IMG/VR virus record: IMGVR_UViG_2541047895_000008
Coordinates: 1 to 47,766 of that record
Length of the DNA stretch: 47,766 nt
Direction: 5' to 3' (one strand)
Source: a virus
Taxonomy: Duplodnaviria; Heunggongvirae; Uroviricota; Caudoviricetes
A program made the translations under genes and the position numbers. Below the pieces are notes generated by a model. That model searched no databases and was not told the DNA's origin. It saw only the letters and a program-made list of their open reading frames with translations. Of this stretch, positions 38,893 to 39,981 are shown in pieces (position 1 is the first letter of the stretch; every line of letters starts with the position of its first letter).

Positions 38893-39981
38893 TTATCCCC
38901 TGAAACCAGGCGGAATTTCTGTATCAGGTTCAGAAATATGATTCACACAACGCTGGTTGTTCGTGCCGCTTACCGGGAGCAACCAAGGGTTCTCAAAATT
39001 CCGGTCCGGTCCAAAAAACGTCGTCGCTCGCTGAACAAATTCCGTTCCCGTCTTCCCGGTAGCCGCCAGGTATCTTGCGTAACGCCTCACACCATCCAGC
39101 ATGGCCTCTGGTAGCACCCCCTCGCGTAACCTGGCTTTCCAGGCACTGAAAGCGGATTTCTTCGGGTTTGCCCCGGCACGCAACGGGTATTCCCGCCAGA
39201 CCTGTTCGAACACATCAGGATAATCCACTCGTCCCACAGGCTGCCCGGTGTTTTCCGGGACTACCCGATCGGCTTCCCGCTGAATGGCGGAATCGGCTTC
39301 AGGCTGCTGAAGTTGGTGTGATTGCTCCTGCCTTGCGGTCATCACCTGCTGCACAGCGCCCGAATCGGCTTTCAGCGCATACGCTGAATCGGCTTCCGGT
39401 GTCGTGCCTGCTGGCTGACCAAGATTGACGGTCTGAACATCCCCTGCCTGGTTCGTGGCGTTTTTTACGCCATGGACCATAGTGTTTTGATCTTCTTGAT
39501 CTGTATCTTTATCTGTATCTTTATCTGTATCTTTATCTGTCGTGACTCGTCGTGACATGTGCGTGACATTTCGTGACTCGCCGTGACAATCGCCATTTTG
39601 TTCCCGCTTTCTTTCCCTCTCTCGCTGCGCCCTCTTGCGCTCTGCCGGAGATTTTGCGGTTTGCGAAATATTGCCGTTGTCCTCTTTCAGCACCTGGCGT
39701 TTTTCCCATCCAGTGATTAAATCACCATCAAGTACCCGCCCCTGCATCGTCTGCAAAATTGAATCAATTACCTCTTCTGTCACGTCGAGCGCACTTGCCA
39801 AATCTTCTGTCGTGACATCAATGTGACCTCGCGTGACATTTCGTGACGCGCTCACCAGGAGGTGGATATACACTGCCATCACTGTTGCAATTGGCTGCCC
39901 TGACACCCTGGCAATTGTTCGCCACTTAGGGTCATTTGGCATGTCATGCCATAATCTGAGCCAGGCGTTAGCCATACTCAC
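38893..39981 (-). CDS. Replication initiation protein (O-like, origin iterons inside the gene)
   Basis: Position after the cro and YdaT-like genes; contains two clusters of CGTGAC iterons plus a DKDT-encoding 12-bp tandem repeat. Confidence 0.6.
   Translation of the reverse strand: MSMANAWLRLWHDMPNDPKWRTIARVSGQPIATVMAVYIHLLVSASRNVTRGHIDVTTEDLASALDVTEEVIDSILQTMQGRVLDGDLITGWEKRQVLKEDNGNISQTAKSPAERKRAQRERERKREQNGDCHGESRNVTHMSRRVTTDKDTDKDTDKDTDQEDQNTMVHGVKNATNQAGDVQTVNLGQPAGTTPEADSAYALKADSGAVQQVMTARQEQSHQLQQPEADSAIQREADRVVPENTGQPVGRVDYPDVFEQVWREYPLRAGANPKKSAFSAWKARLREGVLPEAMLDGVRRYARYLAATGKTGTEFVQRATTFFGPDRNFENPWLLPVSGTNNQRCVNHISEPDTEIPPGFRG
39495..39595. repeat. Candidate replication origin: 12-bp tandem repeat plus five CGTGAC(A/T) iterons at ~10-bp spacing
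   Basis: tatctttatctg x3-4 (39498..39540) then cgtgac at 39541, 39551, 39562, 39572, 39582; a second iteron cluster lies at 39811..39850. Confidence 0.6.

What the first reader, a model, noticed from the sequence alone, without database searches (positions are those of the whole stretch)
39495..39850. Iteron arrays with helical-turn spacing inside the replication initiator gene (candidate origin)
Five CGTGAC(A/T) repeats at 10-11-bp spacing (39541..39590), preceded by a 12-bp tandem repeat that encodes DKDTDKDT, and a second cluster at 39811..39850. This mirrors lambda, where ori sits inside O, but the iteron sequence differs, implying a distinct initiator specificity.
Basis: partly seen in the sequence, partly recalled or inferred. 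Interest (0 to 1): 0.45.

Follow-up and report, generated by a model that had tools for sequence, protein, structure and literature searches.

The report
Phage replication origin inside initiator gene
Inside the replication gene of an E. coli prophage lie two arrays of a 6-base word, repeated once per DNA turn, next to an A+T-rich stretch; this is the expected layout of a replication origin, it is conserved at the DNA level across many bacteria, and it belongs to a common phage replication module that has not been studied.

Summary
CGTGAC occurs five times at 10/11-bp spacing (39541-39587). It occurs again as three exact copies plus one variant at 39811-47, with one inverted copy at 39779-84. 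That is 9 of the window's 32 copies within 310 bp (P about 1e-13). A 12-bp A+T-rich tandem repeat (39494-39540) abuts the first array. All of this lies in a 362-aa gene (38893-39981, minus strand) at the 'O position' of a lambdoid early operon.

In 47 related loci from gamma- and beta-proteobacteria, the same two arrays and the A+T-rich tract recur at the same places. The word is read in three reading frames. Synonymous sites inside it are frozen (0.19 against 1.34 bit). More distant relatives carry a different word (CGAACG, GTAACG) in both arrays, in one case through coordinated synonymous changes.

The N-terminal domain is predicted to be a winged helix. The C-terminus copies the tail of host DnaT, and the window has no helicase or loader gene.

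The best reading is an in-gene origin: iterons plus an unwinding element. It resembles lambda ori and, more closely, SPP1 oriL. The protein family is not detectably homologous to either initiator by sequence. Function is inferred, not demonstrated. It is a new member of a known kind, of moderate interest.

The parts
38893..39981 (-). Replication initiator gene (362 aa), which contains the whole candidate origin
   Evidence: ORF. It matches phrog_3729 'replication initiation protein' at E = 9.6e-255. It sits after cI-, cro- and cII-like genes. It is 96.7-98.7% identical to the replication genes of phages Tritos and Evi.
39541..39587 (-). Iteron array A: five direct copies of GTCACG (gene strand) at 10/11-bp spacing, encoded in the linker after the N-terminal domain
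   Evidence: The array is conserved with 3-5 copies at the same place in 26 relatives. Synonymous sites are frozen.
39494..39540 (.). A+T-rich tract, purine-rich on the gene strand: 12-bp tandem repeat x3.9 (GATAAAGATACA on the gene strand). Candidate DNA-unwinding element and mosaic recombination joint.
   Evidence: GC is 0.28, the minimum of the early operon. In 36 loci the 48 nt after the last array-A iteron average GC 0.34 against 0.55 for the gene. GAT:GAC there is 110:5 against 328:373 elsewhere. Copy number varies among E. coli. Homology breakpoints fall at 39488-39518.
39811..39847 (-). Iteron array B: four copies (three exact GTCACG, one GTCACA) at 10/11-bp spacing, encoded in a surface loop (aa 45-57) of the N-terminal domain
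   Evidence: Conserved in relatives. The loop accepts 7-aa and 23-aa insertions that add further iterons. pLDDT dips in this loop.
39779..39784 (+). Single copy of the word in the opposite orientation, encoding Asp-Val-Thr 66-68
   Evidence: By inspection of the 23-sequence alignment, GTGAC is retained in about 18 sequences and lost in 5 (L010, L011, L013, L015, L027).
39685..39975 (-). Coding region of the predicted winged-helix N-terminal domain (aa 3-99)
39589..39657 (-). Coding region of a conserved basic helix (aa 109-131, ERKRAQRERERKRE). A candidate determinant of specificity.
   Evidence: Helix 112-131 in the model at low confidence. R115, K116, R117, R120 and R122 are invariant within the GTCACG class. 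This segment differs between iteron classes, whereas the winged-helix core does not. Its role is inferred.
38896..38958 (-). C-terminal 21 residues (NQRCVNHISEPDTEIPPGFRG), which copy the C-terminal tail of E. coli DnaT
   Evidence: phmmer against PDB chains 6aep, 2ru8 and 9zbt (DnaT). The alignment reads VN.[VI]SEPD..IPPGFRG up to the last residue. NCBIfam DnaT model, positions 156-179 of 179.
40755..40782 (-). pR-like promoter candidate, from which transcription would run through cro-like, cII-like and the origin
   Evidence: Consensus scan only: TTGAAT-16-TATAGT with TG. The number of such sites in the region is not above chance.

Best explanation
The region 39494-39847 is the vegetative replication origin of this lambdoid prophage, embedded in the gene of its own initiator.

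Proposed mechanism:
1. The initiator's N-terminal winged-helix domain, probably together with the basic helix that follows it, binds the 6-bp word GTCACG.
2. The copies are direct repeats one helical turn apart, so the bound proteins line up head-to-tail on one face of the DNA. There are five at array A and four at array B, about 230 bp upstream.
3. Assembly on negatively supercoiled DNA, possibly with the two arrays bridged, destabilises the adjacent A+T-rich (GATAAA/GATACA)n tract (39494-39540). This tract acts as the unwinding element.
4. The C-terminal half then brings in the host helicase. The prophage encodes no helicase or loader, and the protein ends in an exact copy of the DnaT tail. 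It therefore probably plugs into the host DnaT/PriA-DnaC-DnaB loading pathway.

What is shown: the anatomy; DNA-level purifying selection on the words and on the A+T-richness; co-variation of the word with the initiator lineage; the predicted fold; and the gene context.

What is inferred: binding, unwinding, bridging and helicase recruitment.
For: 1. Clustering and phasing. Nine copies lie within 310 bp, P = 9e-14. Across 23 relatives the spacing of adjacent copies is 10 bp (96 times) or 11 bp (28 times).

2. DNA-level selection.
- The word is read in three frames.
- In a codon alignment of 23 genes that are 45-87% identical, third positions inside the words have entropy 0.19 bit. At 54 other conserved codons the figure is 1.34 bit (Mann-Whitney P = 2e-7).
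- Examples: Val49 is GTC in 22 of 22, Thr50 is ACG in 22 of 22, and Gly52 is GGT in 23 of 23.
- In the otherwise variable linker, the invariant residues are exactly those encoded by the words: H133, S136, R137, V139, T140.
- Indels are 7 aa, which equals 21 bp or two iterons.

3. Family-wide architecture.
- 26 loci from Escherichia, Serratia, Pseudomonas, Bordetella, Acidovorax, Chromobacterium and others carry both arrays at the same gene positions. Their flanks carry about 0-1 copies per kb.
- More distant relatives carry CGAACG(C) or GTAACG in both arrays instead.
- Erwinia L026 (GTCACG) and Pantoea/Enterobacter L022/L024 (GTAACG) are 73-78% identical. They encode the same Val-Thr as GTC ACG versus GTA ACG at homologous copies in both arrays.

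4. The A+T-rich tract.
- It follows array A in 36 loci, including hosts of 60-69% GC.
- Its (A)GATAA word is read in different frames (DKDK, QIREEEIRE, RLDKRR), so it too is a DNA feature.

5. Gene identity. It matches a PHROG replication initiator family and has a predicted winged-helix fold. In relatives the downstream partner is lambda-P-like, DnaC-like or DnaB.

6. Precedents.
- Lambda ori consists of iterons plus an A+T-rich tract in the middle of gene O (PMC7466680).
- SPP1 oriL lies in gene 38 and consists of direct repeats plus an A+T-rich unwinding element bound by gp38 (PMC6316719). Its sequence shows 11-bp-phased short repeats followed by an A+T-rich tandem repeat.

7. The module works. 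Phage Tritos has a 96.7%-identical gene, the same arrays and no helicase or loader annotated in the 13-kb stretch fetched (about 6 kb either side of the replication gene). It forms plaques on MG1655 (PMC9928086).
Against: There is no experimental evidence of binding, unwinding or origin activity for any member of this family, and I found no paper describing it.

Array B lies inside the coding sequence of the domain thought to read it. Its co-variation with the protein is therefore partly automatic. The independent evidence comes from array A, from the synonymous sites and from the L026/L022 comparison.

The winged-helix 'recognition helix' (aa 69-79) is not basic and does not differ between iteron classes. 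How the word is read is therefore unclear.

The partner of the DnaT tail is not defined in the paper I read.
Confidence: 0.75

Rival explanations
1. The arrays are genuine binding sites of the initiator, but they serve mainly for autoregulation or control. Possible roles are transcriptional roadblock, titration, or pairing of the two arrays, as with P1 incA or P4 crr. Unwinding and initiation would take place at another site.
For: There are two separate arrays plus an inverted copy. Array B has no A+T-rich tract beside it. From general knowledge, iterons in plasmids serve both for initiation and for control.
Against: Array A is followed by an A+T-rich tract in essentially all relatives, even in hosts of 60-69% GC, with codon choice bent towards A/T. 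No other cluster of the word exists in the window or in the 3-kb flanks of relatives. The layout matches the experimentally proven SPP1 oriL and lambda ori.
Confidence: 0.12
2. The words are bound by a different protein, such as the neighbouring DUF977/Ren-like HTH protein, the cII-like protein or a host factor, and have nothing to do with the initiator's own specificity.
For: No binding data exist. A DUF977 gene with an HTH lies directly downstream.
Against: The downstream gene differs among relatives that keep the arrays: lambda-P-like, DnaC-like, DnaB or other. No neighbour is therefore constant. The word changes with the initiator lineage in hosts as different as Pseudomonadota MAGs, Janthinobacterium and Pantoea, which a single host factor would not explain.
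Confidence: 0.06
3. The repeats have no DNA-level function. On this view they come from replication slippage, from a repetitive peptide requirement, or from an mRNA-level signal.
For: The adjacent 12-bp repeat is clearly slippage-prone. The region encodes a low-complexity charged linker.
Against: The word is read in three frames. Its synonymous sites are nearly invariant while others are saturated. One helical turn of spacing is kept. An opposite-strand copy is conserved in about 18 of 23 sequences, which argues for duplex DNA rather than RNA. A coordinated synonymous switch GTC ACG to GTA ACG occurs across copies.
Confidence: 0.03

Closest known systems
Bacillus phage SPP1 oriL inside gene 38 (origin-binding 'replisome organizer' G38P)
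   Same: The origin lies inside the initiator's own gene, at the junction between the N- and C-terminal halves. Short direct repeats are spaced about one helical turn apart (AGAAACGACAG / AGAAACGACAC / GAAAAAGACAC ...). They are followed directly by an A+T-rich tandem repeat (AACAATGAT x3) that acts as the unwinding element. The N-terminal domain gives weak, full-length, colinear matches to the replisome-organizer N-domain models, and PHROG families annotated as replisome organizer match at E = 2e-7.
   Different: Sequence homology to G38P itself is not detectable: hhalign probability is 0.1. SPP1 encodes its own loader (gp39) and helicase (gp40) and has a second origin 13 kb away. Here there is no loader or helicase, a second array lies 230 bp away inside the same gene, and the protein ends in a DnaT-like tail.
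Phage lambda ori inside gene O (O protein, O-some)
   Same: Iterons plus an adjacent A+T-rich tract lie in the middle of the initiator gene. Extra iterons add residues to the protein in Stx phages (13 aa for two iterons), and here 7 aa add two iterons. The position in the early-right operon after cro/cII is the same. The N-terminal half is origin-specific and the C-terminal half is exchangeable. Some relatives have a lambda-P-like gene downstream.
   Different: There is no Phage_rep_O homology. Lambda iterons are 19-bp imperfect inverted repeats bound by dimers, four in a single array. Here the iterons are 6-bp asymmetric direct repeats, one per turn, in two arrays. The window has no P gene.
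E. coli DnaT (primosomal protein I)
   Same: The last ~17 residues are nearly identical to DnaT's C-terminus, VN.[VI]SEPD..IPPGFRG. 17 of 70 relatives carry the DnaT DNA-binding domain PF17948 in their C-terminal half.
   Different: The window protein lacks the DnaT DNA-binding domain by Pfam. It has a sequence-specific N-terminal winged helix that DnaT does not have. DnaT is recruited by PriA/PriB to forks, not to a sequence (PMC13377028).
Iteron-type plasmid origins (RepA-type winged-helix initiators)
   Different: From general knowledge, plasmid iterons are about 17-22 bp at about 22-bp spacing and lie outside the rep gene. Here the cores are 6 bp, one per turn, inside the gene.

Membership tests
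Lambda O / ori-lambda type | N-terminal domain homologous to Phage_rep_O (PF04492) | tested here: not met
   Pfam scans of the whole protein and of aa 1-143 give no match, even at E <= 10.
Lambda O / ori-lambda type | Origin (iterons plus A+T-rich tract) inside the initiator gene | tested here: met
   The lambda description is from PMC7466680.
Lambda O / ori-lambda type | Iterons are ~19-bp imperfect inverted repeats bound by dimers | tested here: not met
   The conserved core is only GTCACG, the flanks are weakly conserved, and all copies are direct at 10/11 bp.
Lambda O / ori-lambda type | Partner helicase-loader gene P directly downstream | tested here: not met
   The window has DUF977 and then an IS110-type transposase. 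There is no loader or helicase up to gene Q. Relatives L004 and L029 do have a Phage_lambda_P gene.
SPP1 G38P-type replisome organizer / oriL | N-terminal domain is a member of Phage_rep_org_N (PF09681 / TIGR01714) | tested here: inconclusive
   There are full-length colinear matches, but they fall below the cut-offs: PF09681 E = 0.012, 16.1 bits against 23.3, and TIGR01714 E = 0.016, 15.4 bits against 49.8. None of 70 relatives matches at E <= 0.01. hhalign against G38P gives probability 0.1. PHROG 'replisome organizer' families match at E = 2e-7 to 9e-6.
SPP1 G38P-type replisome organizer / oriL | Mid-gene short direct repeats about one turn apart, followed by an A+T-rich unwinding element | tested here: met
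   Window. SPP1 gene 38 sequence. Published description: PMC6316719.
SPP1 G38P-type replisome organizer / oriL | Initiator binds the repeats and the region supports replication | not testable with these tools
   This needs EMSA or footprinting and an origin-cloning assay.
DnaD-N-like winged-helix fold | Winged-helix fold superposable on the DnaD N-terminal domain | tested here: met
DnaT | C-terminal tail motif ...SEPD..IPPGFRG | tested here: met
   (6aep, 2ru8, 9zbt).
DnaT | DnaT DNA-binding domain (PF17948) | tested here: not met
   Absent from the window protein. Present in 17 of 70 relatives that have other C-terminal halves.

The most novel reading that the evidence does not exclude
This would be a large, unstudied family of proteobacterial phage initiators with three properties.

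(i) The origin is written into the initiator's own reading frame as two arrays of a 6-bp word, one copy per helical turn, plus a purine-rich A+T tract.

(ii) The word has been re-specified several times (GTCACG, GTAACG, CGAACG, possibly ACTACG) by concerted change of all copies in both arrays. Some of these changes are synonymous, so origin specificity and coding sequence co-evolve within the same nucleotides.

(iii) In the E. coli lineage the initiator works alone, without a phage helicase or loader. It would present a DnaT tail, or in relatives a DnaT DNA-binding domain. In effect it would be a sequence-targeted DnaT that diverts the host restart primosome to a phage origin.
Probability: 0.35. 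Interest if true: 0.6.

Novelty: new member of a known kind. Interest (0 to 1): 0.45.

Why it matters
This exact origin region is present over at least 80% of a 181-bp query in 1647 of 5426 complete E. coli genomes. The gene matches at least partly in 2433 of them. The domain occurs in prophages of many gamma- and beta-proteobacteria, yet none of the classical model phages has it and I found no description of its origin.

Knowing the origin and its specificity classes would help to:
- predict replication incompatibility and cross-activation between co-resident prophages;
- explain why the A+T tract is a mosaic joint;
- build minimal replicons.

The natural word switches give a clean system for studying how an initiator and its sites co-evolve when both are encoded by the same bases. 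The DnaT tail suggests a testable route by which a phage without a loader captures the host helicase.

Tried and rejected
- Peptide repeat as the cause: rejected, because the word is read in three frames and synonymous sites are frozen.
- Lambda O homology: rejected.
- Direct homology to SPP1 G38P: not detectable. Pfam Phage_rep_org_N membership is not reached by any of 70 relatives.
- A palindrome beside the A+T tract, as I recall for lambda. The window has 13-nt arms at 39449-39479, but nothing comparable is conserved in relatives. I therefore did not count it as part of the origin.
- Promoter and terminator scan of the region: counts are at chance level.
- A second origin-like cluster elsewhere in the window: none.
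- DUF977 as the cognate binder: rejected, because it is not a constant neighbour.
- Literature searches for this iteron or this module returned nothing relevant: lambdoid + iterons + replisome organizer; Eru replication types of Stx phages; 'bacteriophage replication modules'; GTCACG + iteron.
- The function of the DnaT extreme C-terminal tail could not be found in the 2026 preprimosome paper.
- The fold of the C-terminal domain was not determined. I chose not to spend a database-wide search on it.

Full report
**1. What is in the sequence**

On the + strand, CGTGAC starts at 39541, 39551, 39562, 39572 and 39582 (spacing 10, 11, 10, 10). This is array A. It starts again at 39811, 39832 and 39842, with a one-mismatch copy TGTGAC at 39822. 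This is array B. One copy in the opposite orientation lies at 39779-39784.

The window holds 32 copies in all. Nine lie within 310 bp, where 0.15 are expected from the rest of the window (Poisson P = 9e-14). There is no second cluster.

Directly beside array A, Tandem Repeats Finder finds TCTTTATCTGTA x3.9 at 39494-39540. With GC of 0.28, it is the least G+C-rich stretch of the early operon. It falls in the lowest 1.3% of 46-bp windows of the whole 47.8 kb. It is 74% pyrimidine on the + strand, so it is purine-rich on the gene strand.

Everything lies inside one ORF, 38893..39981 on the minus strand, 362 aa. On the gene strand the word is GTCACG, and it is read as Val-Thr, as Ser-Arg and as Cys/Gly-His. 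This rules out a peptide repeat.

**2. The gene and its setting**

The window is an E. coli lambdoid prophage. The gene is 100% identical to strain 2015C-4136CT1 and 96.5-98.7% identical to phages Evi, Tritos and others.

The gene order is:
- cI-like (40803-41222, + strand)
- cro-like, on the minus strand
- cII/YdaT-like (40047-40472)
- this gene
- a DUF977/Ren-like gene (38430-38852)
- an IS110-family transposase, then cargo genes, DUF968, RusA and Q

No helicase or helicase loader is encoded.

The protein matches phrog_3729 'replication initiation protein' end to end (E = 1e-254). It has no Pfam family at curated thresholds.

The last 21 residues reproduce the C-terminal tail of E. coli DnaT (VN.[VI]SEPD..IPPGFRG).

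**3. Comparative test of the arrays**

The N-terminal domain has about 1000 database relatives. A scan of one genome per species returned 47 loci.

In 26 of them, GTCACG forms two arrays at gene positions ~116-186 and ~376-501. These come from Escherichia, Shigella, Serratia, Rahnella, Pseudomonas, Bordetella, Acidovorax, Aquitalea, Chromobacterium, Castellaniella, Pseudothauera, Gilvimarinus and others. Their 3-kb flanks hold about 0-1 copies per kb. Over 23 loci the spacing of adjacent copies is 10 bp (96 times) or 11 bp (28 times), and almost nothing else.

In a codon alignment of 23 such genes, third codon positions inside the words have a mean entropy of 0.19 bit. The 54 other codons with equally conserved amino acids have 1.34 bit (Mann-Whitney P = 2e-7). 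Val49 is GTC in 22 of 22, Thr50 is ACG in 22 of 22, Gly52 is GGT in 23 of 23, and His53 is CAC in 22 of 22. Meanwhile invariant Pro, Arg, Gly and Val codons elsewhere use all four bases.

In the otherwise unalignable linker, the only invariant residues are those specified by the words: H133, S136, R137, V139 and T140.

Length differences are 7 aa, which is 21 bp or two iterons, in both arrays. A Pseudomonas relative (L027) carries a 23-aa insertion full of extra copies in the array-B loop. That loop (aa 45-57) lies between helix 31-47 and the helix-turn-helix and has a dip in model confidence. It looks like a permissive site that hosts array B rather than a reading head (inference).

**4. The word changes with the lineage**

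More distant relatives lack GTCACG but carry another word at the same two places and with the same spacing:
- CGAACG(C) in L029, L031, L032, L033, L035, L036, L041, L043 and L045
- GTAACG in L022, L024, L034 and L037
- ACTACG as a single array in L039 and L047

Five loci (L028, L030, L038, L040, L042) show no clear word or only a degenerate pair of copies, and L044 and L046 are cut by the contig end after about 300 nt, so array A could not be assessed.

Outside the residues encoded by the arrays, the winged-helix core is about as similar between classes (0.63-0.67) as within them (0.66-0.71). The segment that does differ is the basic helix region.

The most telling case involves Erwinia L026 (GTCACG) and Pantoea/Enterobacter L022/L024 (GTAACG), which are 73-78% identical. 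At homologous copies in both arrays they encode the same Val-Thr, as GTC ACG in one and GTA ACG in the other. This is a concerted switch, partly synonymous, of a DNA word across many copies. It is what co-evolution of an initiator with its iterons predicts, and neither drift nor protein constraint predicts it.

**5. The A+T-rich tract is also a DNA-level feature**

In 36 loci, the 48 nt after the last array-A iteron average GC 0.34 against 0.55 for the gene (Wilcoxon P = 2e-10). This includes hosts of 60-69% GC. There, Asp is GAT 110 times against GAC 5 times; elsewhere in the same genes the counts are 328 against 373 (Fisher P = 2e-26). Lys is AAA 99 times against AAG 21 times.

The recurring (A)GATAA[AG] unit is translated in different frames in different relatives (DKDK, QIREEEIRE, RLDKRR).

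Within E. coli, the tract changes length in steps of 6 or 12 bp. A 181-bp query matches 157, 163, 169 (the great majority), 181, 187 and 193 bp.

The tract is also the mosaic joint. Some E. coli genes share only the part of the gene up to window position ~39488, and others share only the part from ~39518 onward. The N-terminal domain and both arrays therefore travel together and recombine with several kinds of C-terminal half.

**6. Context in relatives**

The gene after the initiator is lambda-P-like in L004 and L029, DnaC/IstB-like in L017 and a DnaB helicase in L043. In L034 the next ORF (464 aa) also looks like a DnaB helicase by inspection, but it was not scanned. This fixes the gene as the origin-recognition partner of a replication module. 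It also shows that no other neighbour is constant, which argues against a different protein reading the words. 17 of 70 relatives have the DnaT DNA-binding domain (PF17948) as their C-terminal half.

**7. Proposed mechanism**

- Steps shown: there are two phased arrays of a selected 6-bp word; an adjacent tract is selected to be A+T-rich; a predicted winged-helix initiator is encoded around them; and the word co-varies with the lineage.
- Steps inferred:
  - One N-terminal domain binds per word, head to tail along one face of the helix.
  - The assembly, perhaps bridging arrays A and B about 230 bp apart, opens the (GATAAA/GATACA)n tract on supercoiled DNA.
  - Transcription from the pR-like promoter passes through the origin, as in lambda.
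  - The C-terminal half recruits host DnaB-DnaC through a DnaT-like route.

Phage Tritos has the same arrays and no helicase or loader annotated in the 13-kb stretch fetched around its replication gene. It forms plaques on MG1655 (PMC9928086). The module is therefore sufficient with host functions.

**8. Comparison with known systems**

The layout matches lambda ori, which has iterons plus an A+T-rich tract in the middle of O (PMC7466680). The protein is not an O homologue, however, and lambda iterons are 19-bp inverted repeats bound by dimers.

The closest match in layout is SPP1 oriL in gene 38, which has direct repeats and an A+T-rich unwinding element bound by gp38 (PMC6316719). In its sequence, short repeats 11 bp apart sit mid-gene and are followed by an A+T-rich 9-bp tandem repeat. 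Sequence homology to G38P is not detectable, and membership of the replisome-organizer N-domain models is only suggested.

I found no paper describing this origin.

**9. Verdict**

The element is most likely the prophage's replication origin (confidence about 0.75; function untested). It is a new member of the known class of iteron origins embedded in initiator genes.

Three features go beyond the textbook cases:
- two in-gene arrays of a 6-bp word, one copy per turn;
- repeated re-specification of that word;
- an initiator that works without a phage loader and carries a DnaT tail.

Interest is moderate.

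Noticed in passing
window 38896-38958 (-): The initiator ends in a near-exact copy of the C-terminal tail of host DnaT (VNHISEPDTEIPPGFRG against DnaT VNTVSEPDSQIPPGFRG). The same tail ends several relatives that have unrelated middle domains (P0031, P0051, P0097, P0116). This suggests a short motif that captures a host partner of DnaT.
   Followed up: partly
window 39449-39479: An inverted repeat (13-nt arms, 5-nt loop, TGGTTCGTGGCGT/ACGCCATGGACCA) followed by a T-run lies on the far side of the A+T tract from array A. It was also picked up as terminator-like on the + strand. It is not conserved in relatives with other C-terminal halves.
   Followed up: partly
window 36876-38153 (-): An IS110-family transposase (DEDD_Tnp_IS110 plus Transposase_20) is inserted in the early-right operon just downstream of the DUF977 gene. 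The prophage may therefore be impaired in late-gene expression.
   Followed up: no
window 39268-39303 and 39364-39399: A 36-nt direct repeat (75% identical) contains the unit GAATCGGCTTC and lies in the C-terminal linker, encoding repeated PEADSA-type peptides. Its significance is unknown.
   Followed up: no
L026:3141-3180 and 3411-3456: In an Erwinia relative the word overlaps itself every 5 bp (GTCACGTCACGTCACG), with 12 copies in total. This is a denser arrangement than the usual one copy per turn.
   Followed up: no
L039:3328-3353 and L047:3328-3375: In two relatives (Serratia, Pantoea) the N-terminal domain is joined to a different C-terminal part. They carry a single array of ACTACG / CTACGTAG-type words and have no array B.
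   Followed up: no
L006, L007, L008, L010, L012, L014, L016, L025, L037 (about 40-50 nt after array A): In many relatives a run of 4-6 C follows the A+T-rich tract, where the C-terminal half begins (encoding Pro-Pro). This may be a protein linker or part of the DNA element.
   Followed up: no
window 39488-39501; L007, L014, L021, L025, L026, L037 at the distal end of the A+T tract: GATC (Dam) sites recur at the distal border of the A+T tract. There are two in the window, 10 bp apart. This could be due to chance codon content (GAT followed by C).
   Followed up: no
window 42972-45446 (+): An 824-aa ORF lies at the position where phage Tritos has exonuclease VIII (RecE-like). In Tritos the region between it and cI holds DicB and DicF, so the immunity region appears Qin/Rac-like. 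The DicB/DicF genes were not looked for in the window itself.
   Followed up: no
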